Assembly (NCBI GenBank): GCA_013390745.1
Contig: JACASX010000009.1
Span: forward strand, 1-32,000
DNA: 32,000 bases
Direction of reading: 5' to 3'
Source of the DNA: Marine Group I thaumarchaeote
GTDB taxonomy: Archaea > Thermoproteota > Nitrososphaeria > Nitrososphaerales > Nitrosopumilaceae
In this document: piece by piece, positions 411 to 30,189 of the stretch
Position numbering within the stretch: the first letter of the stretch is position 1
How the letters are laid out: the number at the start of each line of letters is the position of its first letter
Program-made: the position numbers and the translations under genes
Notes under the pieces: generated by a model
Seen by the model: the letters and a program-made list of their open reading frames with translations, nothing else
Told to the model about the DNA's origin: nothing
Databases searched by the model: none

Positions 411-1769
411 ATGAATTCCACGAACCGCCCAAATGTAATATTTTTACTAATTGATGGATTAAGAAAAGATGAAATATTTGATGAGAATAAAACATCAAAA
501 ACACCAAATTTTGATTCTTTAATTAAATCTGGCTCATTTTTTTCAAATGCATTTTCATCTGCCGATGGTACAATTCTTGCATTAAACACAATCTTCAATT
601 CCCTGTTTCCTTTTAATACTGGTGTAAGAGAAAGGAGAATAGTTCTTACAGATAATAATATTTTTAATATTTTTCAAAAAAATAAGTATCATATTTTTGG
701 ACTTGTGCCAGACATGGAAATTTATGAGCCAATCAAAAAGAAGTTTGAAAATAAATTAAATTCGTATGATTGGATTAATGGAAATGAATCACTTGCAACA
801 GGATTAACAAAAAAAATTATAAATATTTTACAATCTAATAATTCCGAACCGTGGATTTCTTATTTTCATATTTTAGATTTACATCCTTTAAGGGAAGGAA
901 AAATTCCTAATGGCATTGAAGAGTTTGAAAGTTCAGATTTCGGCTCAAGTAATTATTCTAAAACAGTATCTAGTATAGATTATTGGTTTGGAAAAATCTT
1001 AGAGTGTGTAGATTTGTCTAATACAATTATTATTTTAACATCAGATCATGGCGAAAAAATCCCGTACAAAGGAAGAACAAACTCAGATATGGAACACCGA
1101 TTGGACAGGACTAAAAAAATTGGAAAAAGCGTTTTGCCAAAAAAAACTCACGAAAAAGCTGGTAAAATGTTATCTAAAATAAGAACTTCAATTAGTAAAC
1201 CTAAAATAATAATAGAAAACCAAGAACTAACAAATTATCAAAAGCGTTCACGGACTCCTTACTTTACACTTTCATTACATGATGAAAATTTACATGTACC
1301 AATACTAATTGTGGGTAAGGGGATTTCACAATACTTGATAAAAAATTTTGTAAGACATGTAGATATTTTACCTACTTTGTGTGATATACTACATTTTGAA
1401 TTGCCTCAAAAAATTAATGGTGTAAGTTTCAAGCCATTACTTGAGCAAAAACAAATCCAGGAAAATATACAATATTTACATACAATGCCTTATGAAAAAC
1501 CTCATCAAGATGATGCGGTAGGAATAAGAACTAACAAATACAAATATTTTCGTTCAGTTCAAAATCCAAATAAAAACGTCCATTTGTATAATTTACAAAA
1601 AGATCCTCATGAAAACCACAATATTTCAGAGAATAATCAGAATGTTGTAAAAGAATTAGAAGAGGAATTATCAAGATTAATTAAAAATCCAATTACGTTT
1701 AATGAAGAGATGTCAGATGAGGATGATAAAAAAATTGAAGAAGAATTGAAAAAAATGGGATATTTATAA
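411..1769 (+). CDS. Alkaline-phosphatase-superfamily (sulfatase-fold) enzyme, cytoplasmic, Thr at the nucleophile position; predicted phospho/phosphono-ester transferase or esterase rather than a sulfatase
   Basis: N-terminal NVIFLLIDGLR metal-binding Asp string and LTSDHGE near the C-terminal part of the core. SSADGTILALNTIFNSLFPFNTG aligns by spacing to the sulfatase C-x-P-x-R...LTGxYP..TG block, with Thr replacing Cys/Ser and no P-x-R. No signal peptide. A 2-nt gap to the next gene indicates an operon. Confidence 0.75.
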   Translation: MNSTNRPNVIFLLIDGLRKDEIFDENKTSKTPNFDSLIKSGSFFSNAFSSADGTILALNTIFNSLFPFNTGVRERRIVLTDNNIFNIFQKNKYHIFGLVPDMEIYEPIKKKFENKLNSYDWINGNESLATGLTKKIINILQSNNSEPWISYFHILDLHPLREGKIPNGIEEFESSDFGSSNYSKTVSSIDYWFGKILECVDLSNTIIILTSDHGEKIPYKGRTNSDMEHRLDRTKKIGKSVLPKKTHEKAGKMLSKIRTSISKPKIIIENQELTNYQKRSRTPYFTLSLHDENLHVPILIVGKGISQYLIKNFVRHVDILPTLCDILHFELPQKINGVSFKPLLEQKQIQENIQYLHTMPYEKPHQDDAVGIRTNKYKYFRSVQNPNKNVHLYNLQKDPHENHNISENNQNVVKELEEELSRLIKNPITFNEEMSDEDDKKIEEELKKMGYL

Positions 1770-1771
1770 TT

Positions 1772-2887
1772 ATGAAAGATTTGAATTTAATATTAATACT
1801 GATAGATTCTGGTCGGCAAGATTATATGATTAAGTCAGAAATGATTGAAAGACTTAGATCAAAATTTTCATTTTTTACAAATGTAATAACATATGCACCG
1901 CATACAATTGCTTCAATGCATGCAATTTTTAGTGGTTGTTATGGAAATAGAACTGGAACGAATAGTTATTGGTCCACGTTTAAATTTAAAAAAAATAAAT
2001 TTAAAACTTTAACAGAATACCTTCATGAATTAGGATTTAAAACATATGCGGACGTACATAGCGATATTGTTTCTCCAAAACAAGGGTTTAATCAATTTAG
2101 AATTTATGATGAGGAAACAGTTGATATAACAACAAGACATTGTGATTTGTTAAATGAGGTTTCTAATGAAGGAGAAAAATTTTTTGTTTATTTACATTAT
2201 AGTAAAATTCATACAGGAATAAAAAATGAGGTTTTGAAAAAATATACCAATTTTAGTGAAGATTATTATAAAAATTTAAAATTAAACGAAAAGAGATATG
2301 AAAGATTATTTCATGAATCTGAAAATTATTTGAATAAAATTTTGGAAACAATTTGTTCATTAGAATTAGAAAAAAATTCTATCATACTAATTATGTCAGA
2401 TCATGGAATTAGTATAGGAGAAAAAATGGGTGAGATTGCATATGGTGCATTTTGTTATGATTATACACTCAAAACTTTCTCATTAATTAAATTTCCAGAA
2501 ATTACGCCAATTCAAATCAATCAACAAATTAGAAGTATAGACATGATGCCAACAATTCTTGATATTCTCGATATTCAAGTGGACAAACAGTTTGATGAAT
2601 TAGATGGGAAAACGTTGATGCCCTTAATATTAGGAAATAACATGGATGAGGAAATTGCATACTCAGAAACAGGTAATCCACTAAATGAAAAAAGACCTCC
2701 TAAGGAACCAAATACCATGTCGGTAAGAACTTCAAAATGGAAATTTATACACAATGCGCATAATAATACTAAAGAACTATATGATTTAGAAAATGATCCC
2801 TCTGAAACAAAAAATCTCTTTGGAACAAACTCGGATATTGAGAATTATTTGTGGGAAAAATTAGAAAACATAAGAAACAATTTTTAA
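1772..2887 (+). CDS. Second alkaline-phosphatase-superfamily (sulfatase-fold) enzyme, cytoplasmic, Thr nucleophile
   Basis: LILILIDSGRQD and IMSDHGISIGE. YAPHTIASMHAIFSGCYGNRTG puts Thr at the nucleophile position, with the same spacing as in the upstream paralog. The layout resembles the NPP-type T-x-x-x-H...G block. There is a 22-nt gap to the MpnS/HEPD gene on the same strand. Confidence 0.75.
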   Translation: MKDLNLILILIDSGRQDYMIKSEMIERLRSKFSFFTNVITYAPHTIASMHAIFSGCYGNRTGTNSYWSTFKFKKNKFKTLTEYLHELGFKTYADVHSDIVSPKQGFNQFRIYDEETVDITTRHCDLLNEVSNEGEKFFVYLHYSKIHTGIKNEVLKKYTNFSEDYYKNLKLNEKRYERLFHESENYLNKILETICSLELEKNSIILIMSDHGISIGEKMGEIAYGAFCYDYTLKTFSLIKFPEITPIQINQQIRSIDMMPTILDILDIQVDKQFDELDGKTLMPLILGNNMDEEIAYSETGNPLNEKRPPKEPNTMSVRTSKWKFIHNAHNNTKELYDLENDPSETKNLFGTNSDIENYLWEKLENIRNNF

Positions 2888-2909: not shown

Positions 2910-4301
2910 ATGGTAATCGTTTCTAATACAAAAAACCCTGAATTTGTTAGATTTGGTAATTATTTTTTAGGTATGTTAAATGATCTTAAGCGTAGGCCTG
3001 AAGATGCTGCAAATGAATTGAATATTCCATTAAAAGAAATAATGGATATTATTGACGGTAAAAAAGAGATAACTATAGAAATTATTTCGCGTGCAGTAAA
3101 AATCTGGTCAGTAAATTACAGAGACTTTTTTTTGATACGTGATGATTGCCCTAATGGGATTAAAATTATGCGTAACGAGGACTCGGCAAAGAGTTCACGT
3201 GTAATGGATAGAGGTGGTTTGCCTTACTATGAATATAGAGATACTGTAATGAGTAGTGTTGCATTATTTCGTCCTGAGTGGATTGAAGAACTTTGTATTG
3301 TAGAAGATAACGATCCAAACAATCTTGCAGTACAATGGAATAACGGTCATTTCATGCATCAATTTACATATTTTATTGGAGATGTTAATTATTATTATCG
3401 TGGACCTGATGGTGAAAAAAAAGTTGCCATAATGAATACGGGTGATTCAGTATATGGTACTCCGTTTAGACCACATTCATTTGCTACCAGAAAGGGTGCT
3501 AAAAAAAATGGTCTGATTTTGGCATTAACCTATGGAAATCAACTAGCTGCTGACACTCAACAAGAATTATCTGCTATTGGTGAAGAATTATCATTACCAT
3601 ATTGGCTAGATTTCTCTAGTAGAAAAAATGCTTTTGCGCTTTTATTGAATTTTCATCGTAATTGTGCATCACTAAGCTTCGACGAGCTGGAAAAAAGAAC
3701 CAGTACTAGCAAAGAGAAATTAATTCAATATGAAAATTCTTCTGAAATTCCATCTTATGAGACAATTGTAAGTTTAGCAGCAGCTATGAATGTTAATGCC
3801 AGAGATCTGCTTCCAAATGATGTCATTGAGGATAAAGTTATCGTGCAATATTACAAGGATTCAGCAAAATGGAATTTCCCAGAAACGACTAAGGCATATG
3901 AAATTGTCGAACTTGCACACTCAAGAAATCTACCTTTTTCAAAAGCATTTGAATTTACAACTTTAAAAGAAAATGATTCAAATTCGTTGGAAGAATTAGA
4001 TTTGATGGTAGGACTTCATCAATATGTTTACAATGTTGGAGAAAGCACGATACGTCTAAATTGGAAAATTAACAATAAATCTAATCTTGAAGAACTCAAA
4101 CCAGGTGATTCTGTCTACATTAAACCAAACGTACTGCATAATTTTCGTAATAAGGGTAAATTAATGGTTCTTAGGATTGCTGGACGAGTTGCTGGTGATG
4201 CACAAAGAGAATTATCTTCATTAGACAAAAATGATGCACATAGAGCTATTTCTGAAGTATCAATGTGGTTCGATTCACATGAAAAAACTAACATAAAATA
4301 A
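2910..4301 (+). CDS. 2-hydroxyethylphosphonate-cleaving non-heme Fe oxygenase of the MpnS/HEPD family (methylphosphonate synthase or hydroxyethylphosphonate dioxygenase); product specificity unresolved
   Basis: 463 aa with two HTH-like plus cupin halves. His147-x3-Gln151...His189 has the 2-His-1-Gln spacing I recall for N. maritimus MPnS (H148/Q152/H190). Lys27, Arg101, Tyr107 and Asn144 also sit one residue off the remembered substrate-binding residues. The gene lies beside pepM-ppd-pdh. Confidence 0.8.
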   Translation: MVIVSNTKNPEFVRFGNYFLGMLNDLKRRPEDAANELNIPLKEIMDIIDGKKEITIEIISRAVKIWSVNYRDFFLIRDDCPNGIKIMRNEDSAKSSRVMDRGGLPYYEYRDTVMSSVALFRPEWIEELCIVEDNDPNNLAVQWNNGHFMHQFTYFIGDVNYYYRGPDGEKKVAIMNTGDSVYGTPFRPHSFATRKGAKKNGLILALTYGNQLAADTQQELSAIGEELSLPYWLDFSSRKNAFALLLNFHRNCASLSFDELEKRTSTSKEKLIQYENSSEIPSYETIVSLAAAMNVNARDLLPNDVIEDKVIVQYYKDSAKWNFPETTKAYEIVELAHSRNLPFSKAFEFTTLKENDSNSLEELDLMVGLHQYVYNVGESTIRLNWKINNKSNLEELKPGDSVYIKPNVLHNFRNKGKLMVLRIAGRVAGDAQRELSSLDKNDAHRAISEVSMWFDSHEKTNIK

Positions 4302-4305
4302 GAAG

Positions 4306-5055
4306 TTAATCAACTATTTTTTCTCTTATATTTTCTAAATCTTCAATGGTATCAATTTCAAACCAGACACCATCAACAAAAATAGGATTTACAACTTCAT
4401 TAACTTGAATTAATTCATCTATCATATCGGTGAGGTATGCCTTTTGTAATGAAGGTGCATTATGAAACTCTCCCTGATGGGAAGAATTTAATCTCTCAAA
4501 AATATTGAGAAATTTCTTTGAACCAACATTGTTTAGTTTTATTATTCCTAAAAATTCACCTAATTGATGATTTTCAGTAGGATTCAGATTTTTTTTAATT
4601 TTTATTAGTTTATTTGATTTAATTAATGCTAAATCTGCTTCTGATTTTGGGTGCTGAGTACGATTCTCATATTTTTTTTCCCAGTTTAGATCAATTGCAA
4701 CCCCAATGTCATAAGTTGATTCAATCACCTGTTTCATTATGTTGTTATCAACTATTACATCCCCAAATGAAATCACAACATCATTCTGAAAATGTTTGTT
4801 AGCTGCCATTAAACTTCCTAATTGTTCATGGTCATGAAATTTTTTATCAACAACATATTCAATATTTTTTAATTGAAATTTGTCTTTATTTGGACCAATA
4901 ATTACAATGATCTCTTTAATACCATTATTTCGAAATGTTTCAATTTGTCTTTCAAGAATTGATTTTCCATTTACATCAACTAGTGATTTCGGCAAATCTT
5001 TTGTTATATTTCCTAATCTTGAACCCTCTCCAGCTGAAATAAATATGGCTTTCAT
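4306..5055 (-). CDS. LicC/PntC-like nucleotidyltransferase (probable phosphonate cytidylyltransferase), last gene of the pepM operon
   Basis: N-terminal ISAGEGSRLGNITKDLPKSLVDVNGKSILERQI is a G-x-G-x-R-L NTP-transferase loop. The C-terminal FEIDTIEDLENI resembles the LicC end. There is a 4-nt gap after the ppd beta subunit gene. It is a 249-aa paralog of 21613..22362. Confidence 0.75.
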   Translation of the reverse strand: MKAIFISAGEGSRLGNITKDLPKSLVDVNGKSILERQIETFRNNGIKEIIVIIGPNKDKFQLKNIEYVVDKKFHDHEQLGSLMAANKHFQNDVVISFGDVIVDNNIMKQVIESTYDIGVAIDLNWEKKYENRTQHPKSEADLALIKSNKLIKIKKNLNPTENHQLGEFLGIIKLNNVGSKKFLNIFERLNSSHQGEFHNAPSLQKAYLTDMIDELIQVNEVVNPIFVDGVWFEIDTIEDLENIREKIVD

Positions 5056-5059
5056 ACTA

Positions 5060-5614
5060 TCATTTTTTTAATGAATTCATAAATCTATTTTTAATTTTAG
5101 TCGGCTCTATGTTTATTCGTTTACTGGTAACTCCACCTTTTTGAATTTTAACAATTACCATGATTGGACCAGGAATTGTTTTTATTTTTTGAAAAACATT
5201 TACCAGTTGATTTTTTGTTTTTACCTGAAAAACTCTGTAATTTGTTGATTTAGCAATTTTACCTAATTGAATTTTATTTGTTGCTGTAGGCTGTCCACCT
5301 GTTGATTCATGACTACTATTATCAAAAATTACATGAACAAGATTTTTTGGTTTTGCTGTTCCTATAGTAATTAATGAACCTAGATTCATCAAAATATTTC
5401 CATCTCCATCAAACACAAAAATTCGCTTTTTTGTATTTTTTAATGCAACACCTAAACCAATTGAGGATGCCAATCCCATAGAACCAATCATATAGAAATT
5501 CGAATTCCTATCACAAACTTCAAAAAGATCTCGACTAATGAGACCATTTGCAGATATTACAGGATGATCACCAATTTTTTTAACTACTATGCTAATCGCT
5601 TCTTTTCTAATCAA
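5060..5614 (-). CDS. ppd: Phosphonopyruvate decarboxylase, beta subunit (ThDP diphosphate-binding domain; ComE-like)
   Basis: GSMGLASSIGLG and FDGDGNILMNLGSL...FDNSSHESTGGQ form a ThDP GDG...N motif. It overlaps the alpha subunit gene by 8 nt and lies immediately downstream of pepM. Confidence 0.8.
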   Translation of the reverse strand: MIRKEAISIVVKKIGDHPVISANGLISRDLFEVCDRNSNFYMIGSMGLASSIGLGVALKNTKKRIFVFDGDGNILMNLGSLITIGTAKPKNLVHVIFDNSSHESTGGQPTATNKIQLGKIAKSTNYRVFQVKTKNQLVNVFQKIKTIPGPIMVIVKIQKGGVTSKRINIEPTKIKNRFMNSLKK

Positions 5615-6095
5615 GAAAATCTCTTTTCAAAATTAATGTGCATGGTTTTTTCTCTTTGATCAGTTTTAAGGCCCAATTACAAGATACCTTCCAATTTTTT
5701 TCAGTTAAAATTTTAGATTGCAAAGAAAGTGCTTGAAGCAATTTCGGTTGGATCTTTCCAATTTTAGTGTGCTCGGGGGCATCATTTTCTAGGAAACCTC
5801 TCCAACCAATTAAAAAAATTATTGGTATTTGATATAATTGTACTAAAGATGTAATTGTGCTTAAAGAATTTGCAAACCCCGCATTTTGCATAAATACTAA
5901 AGAATTACTTTGTGATAAACTCATTCCAACAGCAATTCCAATAGCTTCTTCTTCTTTAGTAGTAATAAGAATTTTATTTTTTTTAAATCCTTGATCGATA
6001 AAATGTTTCATTGTTGAATCAGGTACTCCAATAAAATTTTCAATTCCATTATTAAATAAATAATCAAAAATTTGTTTTTGCGTTAATTCTTTCAA
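5607..6095 (-). CDS. ppd: Phosphonopyruvate decarboxylase, alpha subunit (ThDP pyrimidine-binding domain; ComD-like)
   Basis: FIGVPDSTMKHF...TTKEEEAIGIAVGMSL...FMQNAGFANS is a typical ThDP N-terminal domain with a catalytic Glu. It has a 4-nt ATGA-type overlap with pepM. Confidence 0.8.
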   Translation of the reverse strand: MKELTQKQIFDYLFNNGIENFIGVPDSTMKHFIDQGFKKNKILITTKEEEAIGIAVGMSLSQSNSLVFMQNAGFANSLSTITSLVQLYQIPIIFLIGWRGFLENDAPEHTKIGKIQPKLLQALSLQSKILTEKNWKVSCNWALKLIKEKKPCTLILKRDFLD

Positions 6096-6988
6096 GAGAT
6101 GTAGCCTAATTTTCTTAATTTTTCTTCAATATCTTTTTCTTGGGATTTAATATCAAACATTTCTTGTAATTTAAAAATTTCATCCATCGAGGACATTTCG
6201 TTCTGTATCTTGTCCATATTATTAGCATCTTTCATTTTGGTTAACAGATTCGTTAGTGCCTTGTGTGCAGCACGTAATGTTTGATTTGCATAAATAACCA
6301 TTTTGATATTATGAGAAATTAATTCGTCCATCTTTACGGAATAATATGTTGTGGGTATCGCAACCAACGGAGAACTTCCTTTCCAGGATTCTGAAAATTC
6401 AAAAATTTCTTCAGGGGAAATTTTTTTCGAATGAATTAAAATTAAATCAGCACCTGCTTTTTCATATGCATAAGCTCTTTTGAGTGCTTCATCCATACCT
6501 ATCCCTGAAATTAATGCCTCTACACGAGCAATAATCGAGAATGACTTGTTTTGTTTAGCTTCATTGGCAGCTAATATTTTTGCAACAAAATCTTTTTCAG
6601 ATAATAATTGGTTATTACCATTTTTTAACAAACTATTTTGCTTTGGAAATGTTTTATCCTCAATACAAATTCCAGCAATTCCGGCATTTTCATATTTTTT
6701 GACAATATGTCTGACATTATTTGCATCTCCATATCCAGTATCACAATCTGCAATTATAGGTATTTGACAAGATTGAACCATATTCGATGCGGCATCAAAA
6801 AATTCAGTCATAGTTAGGATACTAGCATCGGGTACATTGTGAATTGCAGAAATCGCAAAGCTCCCAGCCCAAACAGCGTCAAAACCATGTGTTTCAACTA
6901 ATTTTGCAGACATTGCATCATAAGCGCCACAGACTTTAACAATTTCTTTTTTTTCTAATAAATTTACTAAATTATCTGATTGATTCAT
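6092..6988 (-). CDS. pepM: Phosphoenolpyruvate phosphomutase (PEP mutase)
   Basis: Isocitrate-lyase/PEP-mutase fold (IIADCDTGYGD). The PepM-discriminating E-D-K-x5-N-S motif is present as CIEDKTFPKQNS, residues 110-119, nt 6632-6661, checked codon by codon. ppd follows immediately downstream. Confidence 0.92.
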   Translation of the reverse strand: MNQSDNLVNLLEKKEIVKVCGAYDAMSAKLVETHGFDAVWAGSFAISAIHNVPDASILTMTEFFDAASNMVQSCQIPIIADCDTGYGDANNVRHIVKKYENAGIAGICIEDKTFPKQNSLLKNGNNQLLSEKDFVAKILAANEAKQNKSFSIIARVEALISGIGMDEALKRAYAYEKAGADLILIHSKKISPEEIFEFSESWKGSSPLVAIPTTYYSVKMDELISHNIKMVIYANQTLRAAHKALTNLLTKMKDANNMDKIQNEMSSMDEIFKLQEMFDIKSQEKDIEEKLRKLGYIS

Positions 6989-7039: not shown

Positions 7040-7972
7040 ATGAAGATTATAAAACAACCAAATAATATAAAATTTGGACTTGGGGCTGCAAAAGATTTTA
7101 GCTGTCCAGAAAAATCGTTAGTGATTACCTCAAAAGGGGCCAGTTCGAGGGGATGGTTAAATTATACAAATCTAGAAAAACAAAAATGCTTTCATGATGT
7201 TGAACCTAATCCATCATTAGATACAGCAAAAAAAATTATTTCGAATTTTAAAGATGCAAATATTGAGTGTGTAATAGGACTTGGAGGTGGAAGCTCGTTA
7301 GATGTTGCAAAGTTTGTGGGACATAAACTAGGAAAGAAAAAAATTCTAATTCCAACTACATTCGGGAGTGGAAGTGAAGTAACAAGAATTGCCGTTTTAA
7401 CGGTTAAAGGTAAAAAAACAAGCTTTCATGATGATGAAATGTTTGCAGATACTGCAATTGTCGATCCACATTTTATTAAAAATTCACCAATGGAAGTAAT
7501 AAAAAACTCAGCTGTTGATGCATGTGCACAATGTACAGAAGGATATGACAGTAAAAATGGAAATGAGTATACAAAATTTTTGTGTAATGCCGCATTTGAC
7601 ATATTGGAAGATGCAATATTAAACGAAAAATATGAAAATTTGCCCATGGGTTCATTAGTTACTGGATTAGGATTTGGAAACTGTTCAACAACATTAGGTC
7701 ATGCATTATCATATGTGTTTTCAAATGAAGGATACAGTCATGGTCATGCTTTATCATTTACAACATTAGCCGCTCATCAATTTAATTCATCAAAATTCAA
7801 AGAAAGATTCGAAAAAATAACTAAAAAATTAGAGTTTGAAAGAATTTATTTAAAACAAGATTTAATGATTGCAGCAAAATCAGTTTTCTCTGATAGAAGA
7901 CATTTAGATAATAATCCTAAAATTGTTTCTAAAGGTGATATTATAGATATTTTAAAGCAATTCAAAATCTGA
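7040..7972 (+). CDS. pdh: Iron-containing (group III) alcohol dehydrogenase, probable phosphonoacetaldehyde reductase producing 2-hydroxyethylphosphonate
   Basis: GLGGGSSLDVAKF and a His-rich metal site (LGHALSYVFSNEGYSHGHALS). The gene is divergent from pepM and supplies the reduction step needed between Ppd and MpnS/HEPD. It is short (310 aa) for the family. Confidence 0.7.
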   Translation: MKIIKQPNNIKFGLGAAKDFSCPEKSLVITSKGASSRGWLNYTNLEKQKCFHDVEPNPSLDTAKKIISNFKDANIECVIGLGGGSSLDVAKFVGHKLGKKKILIPTTFGSGSEVTRIAVLTVKGKKTSFHDDEMFADTAIVDPHFIKNSPMEVIKNSAVDACAQCTEGYDSKNGNEYTKFLCNAAFDILEDAILNEKYENLPMGSLVTGLGFGNCSTTLGHALSYVFSNEGYSHGHALSFTTLAAHQFNSSKFKERFEKITKKLEFERIYLKQDLMIAAKSVFSDRRHLDNNPKIVSKGDIIDILKQFKI

Positions 7973-8155: not shown

Positions 8156-8728
8156 ATGTTTCTGATTTCACAGAATATTGAGTCATATGATGTCCAATTA
8201 CCTGATAATGCAGTATTTCGTATTAATCTTGCATGGTGTAACAATCTAAAAGAATTAGAAAATAAATTAGCAAAAAACAAGAAATCAGAATTTTTTGTTG
8301 ATTTACCTGTTGGAAGGATTAAACCGCCAAATAACAAATATTCGTTAGATGATATGATACCGATTATTGAGGCAAATCCGTGTATAAAGTATCTTGCTGT
8401 ATCAAACGTTGAAAACAAGAATGACTTACAACCATTTCTAGAAAAATTACCAGATTACATCAACATAGTACCAAAAATAGAAAGCCAAAAAGCAGTATTA
8501 AATATTAAAGAGATTTGTGATTCATTAAAAACTGAAAAGAAGATTGTAATGTTAGATCATGATGATTTATTTTCTTCAATAATTCATAATAACGAGGATA
8601 AAAATAAGTTTCAAGAATACATAAAATCGTTAATTGATTTTTGTAATGCGAATAGTATTTCATTATTGAGAACTGTCGGAGTTGCATTTAGTGACGATGA
8701 GAAGAGAACAACACAATATGAGAAATAA
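8156..8728 (+). CDS. 190-aa pyruvate-kinase-barrel-like (PK/HpcH-type) mini-protein; putative PEP/pyruvate plus divalent-metal binding; function unknown
   Basis: Segments line up in order with remembered PK A-domain motifs. FRINLAW matches ARLNFSH. FFVDLPVGRIK matches LLDTKGPEIR. IKYLAVSNV matches IDFIAASFV. IVPKIESQKAVLNIKEI matches IIAKIENxEGVxNIDEI. IVMLDHDDLF matches LMVARGDLG. DFCNANSISLLRTVG matches KKCNxxGKPVITATQ. The B and C domains are absent. Confidence 0.45.
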   Translation: MFLISQNIESYDVQLPDNAVFRINLAWCNNLKELENKLAKNKKSEFFVDLPVGRIKPPNNKYSLDDMIPIIEANPCIKYLAVSNVENKNDLQPFLEKLPDYINIVPKIESQKAVLNIKEICDSLKTEKKIVMLDHDDLFSSIIHNNEDKNKFQEYIKSLIDFCNANSISLLRTVGVAFSDDEKRTTQYEK

Positions 8729-8752: not shown

Positions 8753-10174
8753 ATGAAAAATTTCATTGTCTTCCCGTTTCTATTAGCGTTCTTGCCATCA
8801 TGGCAACTGATCTTGAAAAATTATGACGAATTAATTTTCCAAGACATTCTCATTTCATTAGTCATAATAGCTATATCAGTAATAATTTGGATAGTAATTA
8901 CAAAAATAATTAAAAATGGAAATAAAGCGGCTCTAATTACAGGCGTAGGCGTAGCATTCTTCTTTTACTTTGGTTATATGCAAGATGCATTAAATGGGAT
9001 AATGATTTTCAATATTCCCATAGACAAAACTAGTGTTTTAGTGATAATATCAATAATAATTTTTATCACATCAACAATTTATTTTGTAAAATCAAGAAAG
9101 AATTTTGAATTATCAATAAAAATTGGTAATGTTTTTACAATAACATTAATTCTATTTACTTTAGTACAATTTGTTATACCTGGCGCACTTGCTGAAAAAC
9201 CTAATGTGTATCACATAATACTGGATGAATATACCGATAATGAAATTTTGATGGAGAAATTTAACTATGACAACGAAGAATTCTTCAAATTTCTAAACAA
9301 AAATGGATTTTTCATACCAAGTAAATCATTTTCATCGTTTACATCAACTGATGCTGAATTAAACGTGATATTAAACATGGAATATCCAAAAGAGATAGGA
9401 CGGGCATCCGAAAATTATGATTATCTGAATGATAACAACGCTATGTCAGTATTTTCTGAGCAAAATTATTCACTTATTGAAACAAATTCTATGATGCGCT
9501 GGAAGAATTTTTCAGACGTAGATACGAAACTTTGTTATGATACAACCTTCATCAATTCCGAGTTCTTAGATCAAGTTTTAAGAAAATCAATAATTAAACA
9601 CTTTTTAGAAAAACATCAAGAAAATACACGACGTGACGTAATAAGATGCACATTTCACGAATTGAGTGAAATAGCATCGCAAACCAGCGGACCAAAATAT
9701 GTTTTTTCGCACATATATGTGCCACACCCACCATTCCTTTTTGGTCCAAATGGTGAAAATGTTACACCTGATCATCGTGAGATAAGTGGATTGCAAAGTT
9801 GGGAAAACCCACAAGGATACATAGATCAATTAATTTATGCTACAAATGAAGTAAGTACAGTAATAAAAAATATTATAAAAAATGATCCTAACGCAATAAT
9901 TATTGTGCAGGGAGATACAGGCACATCAACAATGTTTCATTCAGCTCCAACAGAATTCAAAGATGTTTATCAAATCTATTCTATTCTTTATGCAATAAGA
10001 ATTCCAGATGTCAATAACTTGGATGCTATGATACCAGTTAACACGTATAGAATTATTTTCAATAATTATTTTAATATGGATTATGAATATTTAGAACAAC
10101 GCAGCTATATGCTTGATCAAAACAATGTTTGGATAGATATTACAGAAAAATTACACGAATACAGATTTGATTAG
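8753..10174 (+). CDS. Polytopic membrane protein with an extracytoplasmic alkaline-phosphatase-superfamily domain (LtaS/EptA-like architecture), paralog A
   Basis: About 145 aa of hydrophobic helices come first. Then come VYHIILDEYTDNE (metal Asp), SFSSFTSTD (Thr candidates), FSHIYVPHPPFLFGPNGENVTP and IIIVQGDTGTS. It aligns end to end with 18410..20020. Confidence 0.6.
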   Translation: MKNFIVFPFLLAFLPSWQLILKNYDELIFQDILISLVIIAISVIIWIVITKIIKNGNKAALITGVGVAFFFYFGYMQDALNGIMIFNIPIDKTSVLVIISIIIFITSTIYFVKSRKNFELSIKIGNVFTITLILFTLVQFVIPGALAEKPNVYHIILDEYTDNEILMEKFNYDNEEFFKFLNKNGFFIPSKSFSSFTSTDAELNVILNMEYPKEIGRASENYDYLNDNNAMSVFSEQNYSLIETNSMMRWKNFSDVDTKLCYDTTFINSEFLDQVLRKSIIKHFLEKHQENTRRDVIRCTFHELSEIASQTSGPKYVFSHIYVPHPPFLFGPNGENVTPDHREISGLQSWENPQGYIDQLIYATNEVSTVIKNIIKNDPNAIIIVQGDTGTSTMFHSAPTEFKDVYQIYSILYAIRIPDVNNLDAMIPVNTYRIIFNNYFNMDYEYLEQRSYMLDQNNVWIDITEKLHEYRFD

Positions 10175-20351: not shown

Positions 20352-21548
20352 ATGAAAATCACCAAATCGATTTTTGGTAAAGAAGGGAACGATATCGACA
20401 AATTTAATGAATTGGATTTGGATGAACGTTCAATCGTTTTCTATTCGGAAAGTTCAGTTATCTTGTATCCATATGTTGAGGAAATAATTAGGGAGCTCCA
20501 AAATAGAGATCAAAAAATTTGTTATTTAACCTCAAGCAAACATGATCCCATTCTCAAAAACGAGAGTAAAAACATCAAAGTTTTTTACATTGGTGACTCT
20601 GAAATTGAAAAAATGAAATTTTTTTTAAGATTAAAGGCAAAGGTGTTAATTATGACCATGCCTGATTTAGGAAGTTACCATATTAAGCGTTCAAAAATAT
20701 TCCCAGTTCATTACATTTACACTTTTCATTCAATGAATAGTACGCATATGGATGGTACTAATTACGTCAGGACTTCTCTCTTTCGAAAGAGTACACTTGA
20801 CCAGTTTGATAGTATATTTTGTGTAGGGAAATACCAAGTTCAAGAAATTCGTGCCACTGAAGAGTTGTATAACCTTAACAAAAAAAATTTGGTTGAATGC
20901 GGATATGGGTTATTAGACAAATTAATCAGATTAAGATCTTCATCTGCACAACAAAATTTTCTGTCACAAAATAATAAAAAAAAGGTTCTAATTGCACCTT
21001 CATGGGGAAAACAAAATTTATTGGAATCTGTGGGCATAGAATTAGTAAAAATTTTACTTGATGCTGGTTATCATGTTACAATTAGACCACATCCTATGAC
21101 CATTAAAAAATCACCCAAGGTAGTAAAACAAATTAAGGAAAAATTTGAGAAAAATCCAGATTTTGATTTAGATACAAATGTATCCTCTCTTGAACAATTG
21201 TTGTCTAGTTATGCACTGATTACAGATTGGTCAGGAATTGGTTATGAATATGCATTCGTTTGCGAAAGACCTGTGATTTATGTTGAGGTTCTAAAAAAAG
21301 CTCGTAATAAAGAATATGAAAAAATTGGGCTTGAACAATTTGAAATTAGTATTAGAGATAAAATAGGCGAAATTGTTTCTATTCAAAATATAGAAAACAT
21401 ACCAGAACGCATCGAATTTTTGTATGCTCATATCAACGATTTTGAAAATAAAATCCAGAAAATTCGGAATGATGCAATTTTCAATATTGGAGAATCTGGA
21501 AAAGTAACTGCTAATGAGATTATTAGAATAATTAATGAAAAAGCATAA
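20352..21548 (+). CDS. TagF-like CDP-alcohol phosphotransferase catalytic domain, paralog B, lacking its own membrane anchor
   Basis: DERSIVFY, MPDLGSYHIKRS, FPVHYIYTFHSM, LIAPSWGKQN, IRPHPMT and ITDWSGIGYEYAFVCERPVIYVEV are all colinear with residues ~115-480 of 10171..11613. Confidence 0.6.
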   Translation: MKITKSIFGKEGNDIDKFNELDLDERSIVFYSESSVILYPYVEEIIRELQNRDQKICYLTSSKHDPILKNESKNIKVFYIGDSEIEKMKFFLRLKAKVLIMTMPDLGSYHIKRSKIFPVHYIYTFHSMNSTHMDGTNYVRTSLFRKSTLDQFDSIFCVGKYQVQEIRATEELYNLNKKNLVECGYGLLDKLIRLRSSSAQQNFLSQNNKKKVLIAPSWGKQNLLESVGIELVKILLDAGYHVTIRPHPMTIKKSPKVVKQIKEKFEKNPDFDLDTNVSSLEQLLSSYALITDWSGIGYEYAFVCERPVIYVEVLKKARNKEYEKIGLEQFEISIRDKIGEIVSIQNIENIPERIEFLYAHINDFENKIQKIRNDAIFNIGESGKVTANEIIRIINEKA

Positions 21549-21580
21549 GCAAAATAGCTTGTGATAAATTTGTTCTAACA

Positions 21581-21588
21581 TTATATTA
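21581..21588 (+). promoter_or_regulatory. TATA-like element (ttatatta) ~28 nt upstream of the 21613 start
   Basis: Position and composition only. It would give the nucleotidyltransferase/oxygenase/radical-SAM operon its own promoter. Confidence 0.25.
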
Positions 21589-21612
21589 TGGCCAGTTAAT
21601 GTCATAAATTAC

Positions 21613-22362
21613 ATGCGTGTGATAATTCTAGCTGCTGGGGCAGGTTTACGATTAGGTCAACACATAAAAGATATTCCAAAAGCGCTTTTAGATCTAAATG
21701 GGAAATCTATTTTGGAAAGACAAATTTCATTATTAAGACAACATGGAATAAATGAAATTTTTGTTGTTACTGGATATCAACGAGAAAAACATACATTGAA
21801 AGATATTGAATATATTTTCAATCCAAGATATGCTGAAACTGAACAACTTGCTAGTATGATGGTAGCAAGAACAAAAATTTCTGATGATGTTTTAGTCATT
21901 TTTGGTGATATTGTATTTGACGGTCAAATCCTTCAACAAATTTTAGCCTCCAATGATGATATTGCTATGGCGATTGATTTGAATTGGGAAAAATCCTATA
22001 ATGATGGTCTGTGCAATAGCCATCCATTAGATGAACCAGTTTTGATTAATCAGAAAAAAGTCCTACGAATTTCCTATAAGCAAACTGACACCATGATAGA
22101 AAATCAAACAGTTGGAGAATTCTTAGGTGTAATCAAATTATCTGCAAATGGTTCAAGAACTATAATTAAAAAATACGAAGAGTTGGAAAAGTCACATGTT
22201 GGGAGATTCCATGACGCGAATTCATTAGAAAAAGCAAAACTAGCTGACATTTTACAAGAATTAATTGATTCTAAAATTGAAATTTCCTTTATACCTGTTA
22301 ATGGAAAATGGTGTGAAATTGATACACCCAAGGATTTAGAAAGGGCTAGAAAAAATTTTTAA
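21613..22362 (+). CDS. LicC/PntC-like nucleotidyltransferase, paralog B
   Basis: ILAAGAGLRLGQHIKDIPKALLDLNGKSILERQI, AIDLNWEK, GEFLGVIKL and CEIDTPKDLE. It has the same length (249 aa) and is colinear with 4306..5055. Confidence 0.75.
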   Translation: MRVIILAAGAGLRLGQHIKDIPKALLDLNGKSILERQISLLRQHGINEIFVVTGYQREKHTLKDIEYIFNPRYAETEQLASMMVARTKISDDVLVIFGDIVFDGQILQQILASNDDIAMAIDLNWEKSYNDGLCNSHPLDEPVLINQKKVLRISYKQTDTMIENQTVGEFLGVIKLSANGSRTIIKKYEELEKSHVGRFHDANSLEKAKLADILQELIDSKIEISFIPVNGKWCEIDTPKDLERARKNF

Positions 22363-22376
22363 AATATTGATATTGA

Positions 22377-23321
22377 ATGATAGAAACTCTTGATAAAATT
22401 ATAGCGGATGAACATCTGGGATGGGACAAGACATTAACGGATCAAAAACAACAATTTGTCGTTCAACTTGATTCTAAAATAATTGAAGATCTTGTTAAGC
22501 GAAGAAACGAATTAGATAAGCTTAATGAAATTGATTTGCCACTTTTAAAGAATAAGATACTTGACTTTAGAAAGGAAATACTGCTTGATGGGGTTGGTTT
22601 GTTTATAATAGATGGTACTTGCTTGAAAAAATTTTCGTTGAAAGAAAAAATATCAATTTATACATTAATTACGAAAATTTTGGGTGAATTAATAATTCAA
22701 AATACACAGCAAGAAAAAATTGTGGAGATAAAAGATGTAGGAAAATCAATGAAAACTGGCGGGAGATATCACGAAACAAAAGAAGGCGGATCACATCATA
22801 CTGATAGCCCACAATGGAAGAATGTGCCTGATTATTTGGGTCTTTTTTGTGTTCGTAATGCAAAAAAAGGTGGGACAAATTTATTTTTGAGTGCTTACAC
22901 AATTCATAACAGAATTTTCAAAGAAAGGAAGGATTTGCTTCACACATTTTATGAAAAATTTCACTTTGATAAAAGAGGAGAATTCAAAGACGGAGAATCT
23001 CCAACAGTTTTTGAACCAATTTTCGAATTCAAAGATGAAAGATTACACTTTCGATATCTTCGAAATTATATTGATGCAGGTCATGATATTCAAAATGAAC
23101 CGCTATCTCAAAATCAAAAAGAAGCCTTAACTTATCTAGACAATTTAATGCGGAGGGATGAGATGATAATGAGATATGATCTGAAACCCGATGATATGGT
23201 TTTTTCAGATAATCACCGGGTTGTTCATGGCAGAATAGCATTTGACGACTATGATGATGAAAATTTAAAGAGGTTAATGTTGAGAACTTGGATTAAGGAT
23301 AAAATGTATGAAAAAAACTAG
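22377..23321 (+). CDS. Fe(II)/2-oxoglutarate-dependent oxygenase (TauD/clavaminate-synthase-like)
   Basis: H141-T-D143 facial-triad start (nt 22797-22805, checked). PDYLGLFCVRNAKKGGTNLF is like the CAS/AsnO/VioC PDYLxLxCLR block. The distal DNHRVVHGRIAF supplies His plus Arg. Confidence 0.7.
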   Translation: MIETLDKIIADEHLGWDKTLTDQKQQFVVQLDSKIIEDLVKRRNELDKLNEIDLPLLKNKILDFRKEILLDGVGLFIIDGTCLKKFSLKEKISIYTLITKILGELIIQNTQQEKIVEIKDVGKSMKTGGRYHETKEGGSHHTDSPQWKNVPDYLGLFCVRNAKKGGTNLFLSAYTIHNRIFKERKDLLHTFYEKFHFDKRGEFKDGESPTVFEPIFEFKDERLHFRYLRNYIDAGHDIQNEPLSQNQKEALTYLDNLMRRDEMIMRYDLKPDDMVFSDNHRVVHGRIAFDDYDDENLKRLMLRTWIKDKMYEKN

Positions 23322-28992: not shown

Positions 28993-30189
28993 TTATTTTT
29001 TATACTTTTCCGCTTCTTCGGATCCACCGGTAGCAGTTCCTTTACTATAAGAATGAGCACCTGCACCAGCGAGTTCTCCATTCTGTACAATTAGGTATTG
29101 GGCTCTAATTGGTGTATCATCAAAGAAGCATTCCAATATTTCTCTCGTACCGGCGGCATATCTTGCCTGCGCTGATAATGATGTGCCTGAAGTGTGTGGT
29201 GTCATGCCATGATTTGGCATAGTTCTCCAGACGTGATCGTTAGGTGCTGGCTGAGGAAACCAAACATCTCCCGCGTACCCGCTTAACTGTCCAGATTTTA
29301 AAGCGTCTGCAATTGCTTCTCTATTACAAATTTTTCCTCTAGCAGTATTAATAAGATAAGCACCTTTTTTCATCTTGCTAATTAATTCCTTATCAAACAT
29401 ATTTTCTGTTTCTGGATGTAATGGGCAGTTAATTGTAACCACATCGCACACAGCAACCATTGATTCCACAGATTCGTGGAACGTTAAATCTAATTCTTTT
29501 TCAACCGATTCAGGTAATCTGTGTCTGTCAAAATAATGCAAATGAGTTTCAAAAGGTTTCAATTTTCTTAAAGCAGCTAATCCTATTCTACCTGCTGCTA
29601 CGGTACCTATGTGCATACCTTCTACATCATAGGAACGTTGTACAGCATCAGCAATATTCCAACCACCTGATTTTGCAATTGCGTGTTGATTATGATAATC
29701 TCTAACCATAGATAAAATCATCATAACAATATGTTCAGATACAGAAATTGAATTGCAATATGTAACTTCGACGACATCGACTTTGTTGTCCATTGCGGCC
29801 TGTAAATCAACATGATCTGAGCCAATACCCGCTGTAATTGCTAATTTTAAATTTTTTGCTTTTTCTATTAGTTCTCTTGTTAAATAGAATGGCCAAAACG
29901 GTTGTGATATTACAACATCAGCATCAACTATTTCTTTAGCAGCGACTGAATTATCACCATCTTTATCAGACGTAACTACTAATGTATGCTCTCTTTCTTC
30001 TAAAAATTTTCTTAATCCTAATTCACCAGAAACACAACCAAGTAATTCGCCTGGTGTGAAGTCAATTGCTTTTGGTGTTGGCAGCGTCATACCATCTGGA
30101 TAGTTTTTTAATTCTGGTAGTTCGCTTAATGGATAGTTCTTCGGCATTCCGTCTTTGGGATCATCATACAATACACATAGTATTTTCAT
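28993..30189 (-). CDS. fdh: NAD+-dependent formate dehydrogenase (metal-independent, D-2-hydroxyacid dehydrogenase superfamily)
   Basis: KILCVLYDDPKDGMPKNY, DADVVISQPFWPFYLT, GTVAAGRIGLA, INTARG, GMTPHTSGTSLSAQARYAAGTREILECFF and the GGSEEAEKYKK tail closely match the Pseudomonas sp. 101-type FDH sequence as I remember it. Confidence 0.9.
   Translation of the reverse strand: MKILCVLYDDPKDGMPKNYPLSELPELKNYPDGMTLPTPKAIDFTPGELLGCVSGELGLRKFLEEREHTLVVTSDKDGDNSVAAKEIVDADVVISQPFWPFYLTRELIEKAKNLKLAITAGIGSDHVDLQAAMDNKVDVVEVTYCNSISVSEHIVMMILSMVRDYHNQHAIAKSGGWNIADAVQRSYDVEGMHIGTVAAGRIGLAALRKLKPFETHLHYFDRHRLPESVEKELDLTFHESVESMVAVCDVVTINCPLHPETENMFDKELISKMKKGAYLINTARGKICNREAIADALKSGQLSGYAGDVWFPQPAPNDHVWRTMPNHGMTPHTSGTSLSAQARYAAGTREILECFFDDTPIRAQYLIVQNGELAGAGAHSYSKGTATGGSEEAEKYKK

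What the first reader, a model, noticed from the sequence alone, without database searches (positions are those of the whole stretch)
3348..3476. The MpnS-like oxygenase carries HEPD-type specificity markers (Tyr161/Gly183) rather than the Phe/Ile pair I recall for true methylphosphonate synthases
The sequence shows His147 (3348-3350), Gln151 (3360-3362) and His189 (3474-3476). That is exactly the spacing of the 2-His-1-Gln triad I recall for N. maritimus MPnS (H148/Q152/H190). Lys27, Arg101, Tyr107 and Asn144 are likewise offset by one from the remembered substrate-binding residues.

As I recall Born et al. 2017, MPnS chemistry requires the Gln to be pinned by Phe162 and Ile184. The 2-His-1-Gln HEPD of Streptomyces albus has Tyr and Gly there and makes hydroxymethylphosphonate plus formate. 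A Y->F/G->I swap converts it to an MPnS.

Here the equivalent positions are Tyr161 (tat, 3390-3392) and Gly183 (ggt, 3456-3458). If the spacing-based alignment holds, this organism may make hydroxymethylphosphonate plus formate rather than methylphosphonate plus CO2. That would change what the island contributes to the marine methane paradox.
Basis: partly seen in the sequence, partly recalled or inferred. Interest (0 to 1): 0.7.

Follow-up and report, generated by a model that had tools for sequence, protein, structure and literature searches.

The report
Archaeal methylphosphonate synthase with HEPD-type switch
A marine archaeon's copy of the enzyme thought to make methylphosphonate (a precursor of ocean methane) carries the two residues that in a related enzyme redirect the reaction to hydroxymethylphosphonate plus formate. 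A whole conserved lineage of such genes is currently counted as methylphosphonate synthases.

Summary
ORF 2910-4301 (463 aa; NCBI NWK05490.1, Marine Group I thaumarchaeote) aligns without gaps across the catalytic cupin to N. maritimus MPnS (6B9S) and S. albus HEPD (6B9R). His147/Gln151/His189 form the 2-His-1-Gln triad. The two Gln-adjacent specificity positions are Tyr161/Gly183 (HEPD type), not Phe/Ile (MPnS type).

It is not an error. More than 100 metagenomic relatives (60-100% identity) keep Tyr/Gly, with synonymous codon variation and dN/dS of about 0.12.

The gene is the positional ortholog of thaumarchaeal mpnS, in the same sulfatase-oxygenase-NTP-transferase-ppd-pepM-ADH cassette. 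Its clade nests among Phe/Ile sequences, far from S. albus-type HEPDs. This is one of three independent Phe/Ile-to-Tyr/Gly switches in the family. The two sites change on the same branch 8 times (0.37 expected). Val181 and Gly102 also converge on the HEPD state. Arg187 is unique to the clade.

Best reading (about 0.55): an MPnS ortholog that now works like a class II HEPD, making hydroxymethylphosphonate plus formate for glycan decoration. About 1 in 10 sampled thaumarchaeal-type contigs are this type, and JGI labels such proteins MPnS. The product is untested.

The parts
2910..4301 (+). 463-aa bi-cupin/HTH oxygenase, positional ortholog of thaumarchaeal MPnS with HEPD-type switch residues (NCBI NWK05490.1, annotated 'hypothetical protein')
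3348..3350 (+). His147, first Fe ligand (= MPnS His148)
   Evidence: invariant in 84-sequence family alignment
3360..3362 (+). Gln151, the Gln of the 2-His-1-Gln triad (= MPnS Gln152)
3474..3476 (+). His189, second His ligand (= MPnS His190)
3390..3392 (+). Tyr161 at the position of MPnS Phe162 / SaHEPD Tyr163 (specificity marker 1)
3456..3458 (+). Gly183 at the position of MPnS Ile184 / SaHEPD Gly184 (specificity marker 2)
3450..3452 (+). Val181, on the same beta-strand as Gly183. Val in 33/38 Tyr/Gly sequences; Met (99) or Asn (26) in about 141 Phe/Ile sequences. A third convergent site.
3468..3470 (+). Arg187, in the turn between the Gly183 strand and the His189 strand. Invariant in the thaumarchaeal Tyr/Gly clade (20/20) and absent from the aligned Phe/Ile and other Tyr/Gly sequences. 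Two more distant 50%-cluster representatives do carry Arg here (P0216 Phe/Ile, P0174 His/Thr).
3213..3215 (+). Gly102, next to the substrate-binding Arg101. Ala in thaumarchaeal Phe/Ile enzymes, Gly in most HEPD-II.
2988..2990 (+). Lys27 (= MPnS Lys28), a 2-HEP phosphonate-binding residue. Arg101 (3210-3212), Tyr107 (3228-3230) and Asn144 (3339-3341) are likewise conserved.
411..2887 (+). Two sulfatase/alkaline-phosphatase-superfamily genes (411-1769, 1772-2887) that precede the oxygenase, as in Nitrosopumilaceae MPn cassettes
4306..5055 (-). MobA-like NTP transferase, presumed to activate the phosphonate product as a nucleotide conjugate. The least conserved cassette gene apart from the first sulfatase-like gene (45-52% identity to Phe/Ile loci).
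5060..6095 (-). Phosphonopyruvate decarboxylase, two subunits (TPP_enzyme_C 5060-5614, TPP_enzyme_N 5607-6095)
6092..6988 (-). PEP phosphomutase (PepM)
   Evidence: PF13714, E 1e-57
7040..7972 (+). Fe-alcohol dehydrogenase (phosphonoacetaldehyde reductase, makes 2-HEP)
28993..30189 (-). NAD-dependent formate dehydrogenase of bacterial type, a possible sink for formate released by HEPD-type chemistry. The link is circumstantial.

Best explanation
ORF 2910-4301 is the ortholog of thaumarchaeal methylphosphonate synthase in a diverged Marine Group I lineage. That lineage has convergently acquired the second-sphere residues of class II (2-His-1-Gln) hydroxyethylphosphonate dioxygenases.

Shown here: the fold, the Fe ligands (His147, Gln151, His189) and the 2-HEP-binding residues (Lys27, Arg101, Tyr107, Asn144) are those of MPnS. 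PepM, Ppd and the Fe-ADH next door supply 2-HEP.

Inferred from the published mechanism: O2 activation and C1-C2 scission give a methylphosphonate radical, Fe(III)-OH and formate, as in both enzymes. In MPnS, Phe162 and Ile184 pin the Gln, so formate stays placed to donate its hydrogen, giving methylphosphonate plus CO2. Here Gly183 (with Val181 on the same strand) removes that packing, and Tyr161 offers a hydrogen bond to a displaced Gln151, as in S. albus HEPD. The radical would then rebound on Fe-OH, giving hydroxymethylphosphonate (HMP) plus free formate.

Also inferred: the adjacent NTP transferase and the sulfatase-like and glycerophosphotransferase-like enzymes would attach the product to a surface glycan, as proposed for MPn in N. 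maritimus. The formate could be oxidised by the NAD-dependent formate dehydrogenase at 28993-30189, returning the NADH spent by the Fe-ADH.
For: - Marker identity: gapless alignment to 6b9s and 6b9r puts Tyr/Gly at the Phe162/Ile184 positions. The marker definitions are corroborated by PMC9381506 Table S2.
- Real and selected: 103 of the 120 nearest 90%-clusters are Tyr/Gly. 11 of 120 metagenome stretches are Tyr/Gly, all with the motif GDSVYGTPFRPH, down to 60% identity. dN/dS is 0.11-0.13 at dS up to 1.5, with TAT/TAC and GGT/GGA variants.
- Orthology: the cassette sulf-sulf-OXY-NTPt-PpdB-PpdA-PepM-FeADH is syntenic with Nitrosopumilaceae Phe/Ile loci. The oxygenase (55-60% identity) diverges like its neighbours (45-71%).
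- Convergence: the clade is monophyletic (89% bootstrap with marker columns masked) and nested among Phe/Ile sequences away from all other Tyr/Gly sequences (100%). SaHEPD falls in the distant Tyr/Gly clade and NmMPnS in the Phe/Ile Nitrosopumilaceae clade.
- Coupled switch: across 388 branches there are 11 changes at site 161 and 13 at site 183, with 8 on the same branch (0.37 expected, hypergeometric P about 2e-11). Phe/Ile to Tyr/Gly happened 3 times and the reverse twice.
- Further convergence: of 30 clade-defining substitutions, those that match the HEPD-II majority and are rare in Phe/Ile enzymes are Gly102, Tyr161, Val181 and Gly183. All sit in active-site motifs.
- Point substitutions, not a gene-conversion tract: the stretch between the markers stays MPnS-like.
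- A formate dehydrogenase lies in the same contig (669 bits against a cut-off of 329).
Against: - No enzyme of this clade has been assayed.
- The Phe/Ile versus Tyr/Gly rule was demonstrated by mutagenesis only in S. albus HEPD (towards MPnS). I could not read Born et al. 2017 to check single-mutant or reverse-direction data.
- Overall the protein is much closer to MPnS (about 54% identity, TM 0.95-0.97) than to SaHEPD (34%, TM 0.89-0.93).
- Arg187, invariant in the clade and absent from the aligned members of both known classes (apart from two distant representatives), sits in the turn next to His189. It could re-pin Gln151 or hold formate, restoring MPnS-like chemistry.
- The gene context is the MPn-type glycan-decoration cassette, with no HMP dehydrogenase or other HMP-specific tailoring enzyme.
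- The formate dehydrogenase is 25 kb away. Its lineage cluster is far more abundant than the oxygenase clusters (1391 members against at most 122). It keeps its Tes-FDH-STT3 position in a contig with no phosphonate genes within 10 kb. It is therefore probably a lineage trait and not a dedicated partner.
Confidence: 0.55

Rival explanations
1. It is still a methylphosphonate synthase. In this scaffold other residues (for example the clade-specific Arg187) keep Gln151 or formate in place, so Tyr/Gly does not change the product.
For: It is the positional ortholog of N. maritimus mpnS in an otherwise identical cassette. About 54% identity and TM 0.95-0.97 to 6b9t. All ligand and substrate residues are conserved. 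JGI annotates clade members as methylphosphonate synthase. Arg187 is a clade-specific addition next to the metal site.
Against: Both defining second-sphere residues of MPnS are replaced. The replacement is exactly the HEPD-II pair, plus Val181 and Gly102. The two sites switch together repeatedly across the family, which is hard to explain if the pair were functionally neutral. The pair has been held for dS above 1.3.
Confidence: 0.25
2. It is a third kind of active site (Tyr/Gly/Arg) with mixed or new output. It might make both MPn and HMP, or act on a modified substrate supplied by the island's other tailoring enzymes (TauD-type hydroxylase, B12 radical-SAM methylase).
For: Arg187 is invariant in the clade and found in neither known class among the aligned sequences. 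A nested subclade has moved on to Phe/Gly and Phe/Gln with further changes at residues 149, 152, 181 and 182, showing that the site is still evolving. The island encodes a second NTP transferase, a TauD-family dioxygenase and a B12 rSAM C-methyltransferase. From memory, the class I HEPD E176H variant (PDB 4yar, listed) gives mixed HMP/MPn, so product partitioning in this family is easily tuned.
Against: The 2-HEP-binding residues are all unchanged, and the 2-HEP supply genes are immediately adjacent. Nothing points to a different substrate.
Confidence: 0.15
3. Artefact or decaying gene: a sequencing or assembly error, or a pseudogene drifting after loss of function.
For: One clade member (P0064) is a chimera of two types, so assembly or recombination artefacts do occur in these data.
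Against: The same sequence was recovered from independent runs (L029, L030). More than 100 clusters from ENA, JGI, NCBI and Tara share the residues. The ORFs are intact, dN/dS is 0.11-0.13 and the marker codons show synonymous variation.
Confidence: 0.02

Closest known systems
Methylphosphonate synthase MPnS of Nitrosopumilus maritimus (PDB 6B9S/6B9T; EC 1.13.11.73)
   Same: Same fold (TM 0.95-0.97, rmsd 1.1-1.3 A). Same 2-His-1-Gln triad and 2-HEP-binding residues. Same gene cassette and position. Same phylogenetic neighbourhood.
   Different: Phe162 to Tyr, Ile184 to Gly, Met182 to Val, Ala103 to Gly and Thr188 to Arg (MPnS numbering). The two residues that define MPnS chemistry are not present.
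Class II (2-His-1-Gln) 2-hydroxyethylphosphonate dioxygenase of Streptomyces albus (PDB 6B9R; EC 1.13.11.72)
   Same: Identical triad. Identical Tyr/Gly pair. Similar local motif GDSV[YW]G..PF.PHS. Gly after the substrate Arg.
   Different: Only about 34% identical and in a distant clade, so the similarity at the switch is convergent. SaHEPD-type enzymes have Ala or Ser where this clade has Arg187. The context is actinomycete natural-product clusters rather than an archaeal glycan island.
Marine HepD of SAR11 / Prochlorococcus (Lockwood et al. 2022, PMC9381506)
   Same: Marine, proposed to make HMP for cell-surface conjugates.
   Different: Bacterial. That survey reports all marine hepD as Pelagibacterales plus one Prochlorococcus and lists Thaumarchaeota only under MpnS. 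The thaumarchaeal Tyr/Gly lineage is not mentioned.
Class I HEPD PhpD of S. viridochromogenes (PDB 3G7D/3GBF) and HppE (PDB 1ZZ8, 5U55)
   Same: Same cupin superfamily and 2-HEP-type phosphonate substrates.
   Different: Class I HEPD is 17-18% identical (TM about 0.72-0.80) and uses a 2-His-1-Glu triad, with the Glu at the Gly183-equivalent position. HppE matches only one cupin domain.

Membership tests
Methylphosphonate synthase (MPnS, EC 1.13.11.73) | Homology and bi-cupin fold of N. maritimus MPnS | tested here: met
   phmmer E 3e-163 to 6b9s. AF2 model pLDDT 95. TM 0.95-0.97 to 6b9t.
Methylphosphonate synthase (MPnS, EC 1.13.11.73) | 2-His-1-Gln iron triad (H148/Q152/H190) | tested here: met
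   His147/Gln151/His189, gapless alignment. Invariant in the family alignment.
Methylphosphonate synthase (MPnS, EC 1.13.11.73) | Gln pinned by Phe162 and Ile/Val184 (sequence marker used by Born 2017 and Lockwood 2022) | tested here: not met
   Tyr161 and Gly183 occupy these positions. Marker definition from PMC9381506 Table S2.
Methylphosphonate synthase (MPnS, EC 1.13.11.73) | Genomic context with pepM, ppd, pdh and glycan-decoration genes, as in N. maritimus | tested here: met
   Syntenic cassette with Nitrosopumilaceae loci.
Methylphosphonate synthase (MPnS, EC 1.13.11.73) | Converts 2-HEP to methylphosphonate plus CO2 | not testable with these tools
   Needs an enzyme assay.
Class II HEPD (2-His-1-Gln, S. 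albus type, EC 1.13.11.72) | 2-His-1-Gln triad with Tyr163 and Gly184 next to the Gln | tested here: met
   Also Val181, as in 13/18 HEPD-II representatives.
Class II HEPD (2-His-1-Gln, S. albus type, EC 1.13.11.72) | Descent from the S. albus-type HEPD clade | tested here: not met
   Nested among Phe/Ile sequences away from all other Tyr/Gly sequences in 100% of bootstraps. SaHEPD groups with P0151/P0197/P0172. 34% identity.
Class II HEPD (2-His-1-Gln, S. albus type, EC 1.13.11.72) | Converts 2-HEP to hydroxymethylphosphonate plus formate | not testable with these tools
   Needs an enzyme assay. A formate dehydrogenase in the window is only circumstantial.
Class I HEPD (2-His-1-Glu, PhpD type) | Glu ligand at the position equivalent to MPnS Ile184; Ala at the Gln152 position | tested here: not met
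   Gly183 and Gln151. Only 17-18% identity to 3g7d/3gbf.

The most novel reading that the evidence does not exclude
An old, conserved lineage of marine ammonia-oxidising archaea has flipped the MPnS-to-HEPD product switch in nature. These cells would then decorate their surface glycans with hydroxymethylphosphonate instead of methylphosphonate. That would make them a source of the HMPn seen in marine high-molecular-weight DOM, and roughly a tenth of thaumarchaeal 'mpnS' genes would feed formate/methanol-yielding rather than methane-yielding phosphonate turnover. A horizontally acquired bacterial NAD-formate dehydrogenase would recycle the released formate into the NADH the pathway consumes. 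Alternatively, the Tyr/Gly/Arg site is a third, undescribed product-control solution in this enzyme family.
Probability: 0.35. Interest if true: 0.8.

Novelty: new variant of a known kind. Interest (0 to 1): 0.62.

Why it matters
Thaumarchaeal mpnS is used as the marker for methylphosphonate, and hence aerobic methane potential. Qin et al. 2020 (PMC7490402) infer MPn production in the deep ocean from divergent thaumarchaeal 'mpnS' lineages. Lockwood et al. 2022 report mpnS rising to 7.7% of the mesopelagic community.

If the Tyr/Gly lineage makes HMP, part of that signal does not lead to methane. HMPn is oxidised by PhnY/PhnZ-type pathways to formate plus phosphate (PMC6581173). C-P lyase would presumably give methanol.

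It would also supply an archaeal source for the HMPn reported in marine HMW DOM. The only marine hepD carriers reported so far are SAR11 and one Prochlorococcus.

For enzymology, the clade is a natural replicate of the engineered S. albus switch in the opposite direction, with intermediate forms (Phe/Gly, Phe/Gln, Tyr/Ile) available in metagenomes. All of this is directly testable with one recombinant protein.

Tried and rejected
- Born et al. 2017 could not be read (DOI and PMC5901744 not held). Statements about its mutagenesis rest on my memory of the abstract. The marker residues themselves are corroborated through Lockwood's Table S2.
- Searching Lockwood's supplements for thaumarchaeal class II hepD entries found nothing, but the big tables are truncated.
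- The first AlphaFold run, on a shallow alignment of close relatives, failed (pLDDT 52). The second, on 84 diverse sequences, was confident.
- I first reasoned that residues 181/183/187/189 lie on one face of a single strand. DSSP on the good model shows 180-183 and 189-194 as separate strands joined by the turn TPFRP, so the orientation of Arg187 is undetermined and I dropped that argument.
- P0064 looked like a Phe/Ile member of the window clade at 85% identity. It is a chimera: residues 1 to about 200 are P0122-type, the rest window-type.
- The GTDB species-representative scan found no Tyr/Gly thaumarchaeal genome, only Phe/Ile and SAR202 Tyr/Ile. Finer taxonomy of the clade (for example WCB) could not be settled.
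- Co-occurrence of the formate dehydrogenase with the Tyr/Gly type could not be tested, because flanks are limited to 10 kb and the FDH is 25 kb away. L033 shows the FDH beside STT3/Tes without phosphonate genes within 10 kb.
- Gene conversion from an HEPD-II gene is rejected, because the sequence between and around the markers stays MPnS-like.
Full report
**What is there**

The finding lies in ORF 2910-4301 (+), 463 aa. The protein is identical to NCBI NWK05490.1, 'hypothetical protein HX833_05300 [Marine Group I thaumarchaeote]'. The same gene was recovered from two independent sequencing runs.

**Alignment to solved structures**

phmmer against all PDB sequences returns three families:
- N. 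maritimus MPnS (6b9s/6b9t, E 3e-163)
- S. albus HEPD (6b9r, E 3e-80)
- HppE (E 3e-9)

Through the catalytic cupin the alignment is gapless with a constant +1 offset:
- window: HFMHQFTYFIGDVNYYY...GDSVYGTPFRPH
- MPnS: HFMHQFTYFIGEVNFYY...GDSMYITPFTPH
- SaHEPD: HLLYQFTYFVGPVNYYF...GDSVWGLPFAPH

The triad is His147/Gln151/His189 and the substrate-binding residues are conserved. The two Gln-adjacent positions carry Tyr and Gly as in SaHEPD, not Phe and Ile as in MPnS.

A second AlphaFold model, built on 84 diverse homologs, is confident (pLDDT 95, pTM 0.92). It superposes on 6b9t at TM 0.95-0.97 (rmsd 1.1-1.3 A, 53-54% identity) and on 6b9r at TM 0.89-0.93 (34% identity).

I could not read Born et al. 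2017. Lockwood et al. 2022 use exactly these markers: mpnS = H148 Q152 F162 I/V184 H190; hepD = H148 A/Q152 I/Y162 E/G184 H190 (PMC9381506, Table S2).

**Not an error, not decay**

The database search found 1,928 family members. The 120 best are all 71-100% identical to the window protein. Among them, 103 are Tyr/Gly, 8 Phe/Gly, 8 Phe/Gln and 1 Phe/Ile, and all keep the ligands and substrate residues. The single Phe/Ile case (P0064) is a chimera: its first 200 or so residues are about 90% identical to a different Phe/Ile type (P0122), and the rest is about 98% identical to the window.

Codon-level comparison with relatives at 91% and 73% identity gives dN/dS 0.11-0.13 at dS 0.37-1.5. This matches a pair of Phe/Ile orthologs (0.14). 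The marker codons vary synonymously (TAT/TAC, GGT/GGA).

**Orthology**

The neighbours are two sulfatase-family genes, an NTP transferase, both Ppd subunits, PepM and an Fe-alcohol dehydrogenase. The same cassette in the same order flanks Phe/Ile homologs in Nitrosopumilus, Nitrosotenuis, Nitrosarchaeum and other Nitrosopumilaceae genomes. Per-gene identities are 45-71% for most cassette genes and lower (27-35%) for the first sulfatase-like gene. The oxygenase, at 55-60%, is no outlier. All 24 non-SAR202 genome representatives are Phe/Ile and three SAR202 genomes are Tyr/Ile.

**Phylogeny and the switch**

Among full-length 50%-cluster representatives of the whole family, 77 are Phe/Ile and 20 Tyr/Gly, with few mixed states.

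NJ trees place the window clade among Phe/Ile sequences and away from every other Tyr/Gly sequence in 100% of bootstraps. I then added 120 metagenome stretches, including Tyr/Gly members only 60-67% identical to the window, and masked columns 102, 161, 181 and 183. The thaumarchaeal Tyr/Gly(+Phe/Gly, Phe/Gln) clade is monophyletic at 89%, and still nested at 100%. SaHEPD belongs to the distant large Tyr/Gly clade. NmMPnS belongs to the Phe/Ile Nitrosopumilaceae clade.

Parsimony on that tree gives 11 changes at site 161 and 13 at site 183 over 388 branches. Eight fall on the same branch (0.37 expected; P about 2e-11). Phe/Ile to Tyr/Gly happened three times independently and the reverse twice. 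The pair thus behaves as a coupled functional unit, and the window's lineage is one independent flip of it.

**Other changes at the active site**

The clade has 30 substitutions fixed relative to thaumarchaeal Phe/Ile enzymes. Those that match the HEPD-II majority and are rare in Phe/Ile enzymes are Gly102 (next to Arg101), Tyr161, Val181 and Gly183. Val181 tracks Tyr/Gly family-wide: 33/38, against Met or Asn in Phe/Ile.

Arg187 is invariant in the clade (20/20) and absent from the aligned Phe/Ile and other Tyr/Gly sequences, although two distant representatives carry Arg there (P0216, P0174). In the model it lies in the five-residue turn (TPFRP) between strand 180-183 and strand 189-194. Its orientation cannot be read with the tools available.

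The sequence between the markers stays MPnS-like, so these are point substitutions and not a conversion tract.

**Most likely mechanism**

Shown: the MPnS scaffold, iron site and 2-HEP site; the 2-HEP supply next door; HEPD-type second sphere.

Inferred: after C-C scission, Gly183/Val181 leave room for Gln151 to move and Tyr161 can hydrogen-bond it. Formate is then no longer held for hydrogen donation, and the methylphosphonate radical rebounds on Fe-OH. The products would be hydroxymethylphosphonate plus formate. The NTP transferase and the sulfatase-like and glycerophosphotransferase-like enzymes would attach the product to a glycan. I put this at about 0.55.

Rivals:
- Still an MPnS, with Arg187 or other residues compensating: 0.25.
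- A third, mixed or new output: 0.15.
- Artefact or pseudogene: 0.02, refuted.

**Formate dehydrogenase**

ORF 28993-30189 (-) is an NAD-dependent formate dehydrogenase (NF005750, 669 bits against a cut-off of 329). It lies between the archaeal AglB/STT3 and tetraether synthase Tes. Its closest named relatives are bacterial, at 84-86% identity (Methylophaga, Porticoccaceae, Pelagibacteraceae). Unnamed metagenome clusters match at 89-98%, one of them with 1,391 members. The Tes-FDH-STT3 arrangement recurs in another sample.

It could oxidise HEPD-derived formate and repay the NADH used by the Fe-ADH. However, it is 25 kb from the oxygenase and looks like a lineage trait, so I count it only as circumstantial.

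**How common**

Of these, about 98 are Phe/Ile, 11 Tyr/Gly, 5 Phe/Val and 3 Tyr/Ile. This is an arbitrary and not abundance-weighted sample, so 'about one in ten' is rough. JGI names several clade members 'methylphosphonate synthase'.

Loci with P0122-type Phe/Ile enzymes share accessory island genes with the window at 80-85% identity (glycerophosphotransferases, second NTP transferase, TauD, a 190-aa ORF), although the oxygenases are only 58-59% identical. Together with the P0064 chimera, this suggests that both oxygenase types circulate in related pelagic populations.

**Comparison with the literature**

- Qin et al. 2020 describe divergent deep-marine thaumarchaeal 'mpnS' lineages and infer MPn, and methane, production at depth.
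- Lockwood et al. 2022 list Thaumarchaeota only under MpnS and report marine hepD only from SAR11 and one Prochlorococcus.
- Sosa et al. 2019 state that HMPn occurs in marine HMW DOM and is oxidised to formate plus phosphate.

I found no paper noting HEPD-type markers in thaumarchaeal enzymes. The library is incomplete and does not hold Born et al.

**Verdict**

This is a new variant of a known enzyme kind, with real consequences for how 'mpnS' gene counts are read. It is testable with one recombinant protein.

Noticed in passing
window 28993-30189 (-): NAD-dependent formate dehydrogenase (669 bits against a cut-off of 329) between archaeal AglB/STT3 and Tes. It is 84-86% identical to Methylophaga, Porticoccaceae and Pelagibacteraceae enzymes, so it was probably acquired from bacteria. 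The lineage's own cluster is very abundant (1,391 members). The same Tes-FDH-STT3 synteny is seen in L033.
   Followed up: partly
window 20352-25386 (+): A second phosphonate-tailoring-like module: Glyphos_transf, a second MobA-like NTP transferase, a TauD-family Fe/2OG dioxygenase (weakly like TmpA/BBOX C-hydroxylases) and a 692-aa B12-binding radical SAM of the KedN5 C-methyltransferase type. This resembles the cytidylyl-2-HEP/Fom3 logic of fosfomycin and could produce hydroxylated or methylated phosphonate head groups. The TauD, NTP transferase and Glyphos_transf are 80-85% identical to genes beside P0122-type Phe/Ile MPnS (L042, L092, L136).
   Followed up: partly
P0064 (relative of window 2910-4301): Chimeric oxygenase. 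Residues 1 to about 200 are about 90% identical to the P0122 Phe/Ile type. Residues from about 200 to 468 are about 98% identical to the window protein. It is either a natural recombinant swapping the catalytic cupin or a co-assembly artefact (cluster of 6 sequences).
   Followed up: partly
P0069/P0075/P0087 (Phe/Gly) and P0089-P0098 (Phe/Gln); loci L031, L032: A subclade nested inside the Tyr/Gly clade has reverted Tyr to Phe, and in part changed Gly to Gln. That Gln sits at the position of the Glu ligand of class I HEPD. The subclade also carries M149Q, F152V, V181N and Y182S. In L031 the gene has no pepM/ppd within 13 kb and sits among three NTP-transferase/Glyphos_transf pairs and a TauD.
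   Followed up: partly
L019, L021, L022, L052, L083, L153: SAR202/Chloroflexota homologs carry the mixed state Tyr/Ile (GDSCYITPF). This is a natural single-site intermediate whose product is unknown.
   Followed up: no
L073, L080, L102, L121, L158; P0123: Nitrosopelagicus-like homologs are 700-770 aa: the MPnS-like part is fused to an N-terminal extension of about 250-300 aa. Several have Phe/Val instead of Phe/Ile.
   Followed up: no
window 8156-8728 and 8753-10174 (+): A 190-aa ORF and a 473-aa multi-pass membrane ORF right after the phosphonate cassette match no Pfam or NCBIfam family. The 190-aa ORF recurs at 81% identity beside P0122-type MPnS (L093, L129).
   Followed up: no
window 3468-3470 (Arg187): Arg in the TPFRP turn next to the His189 ligand is invariant in the thaumarchaeal Tyr/Gly, Phe/Gly and Phe/Gln sequences. 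It is essentially absent elsewhere in the family: Val, Thr or Ile in MPnS-type, Ala or Ser in HEPD-II, with rare exceptions (P0216, P0174). Its role is unexplained.
   Followed up: partly
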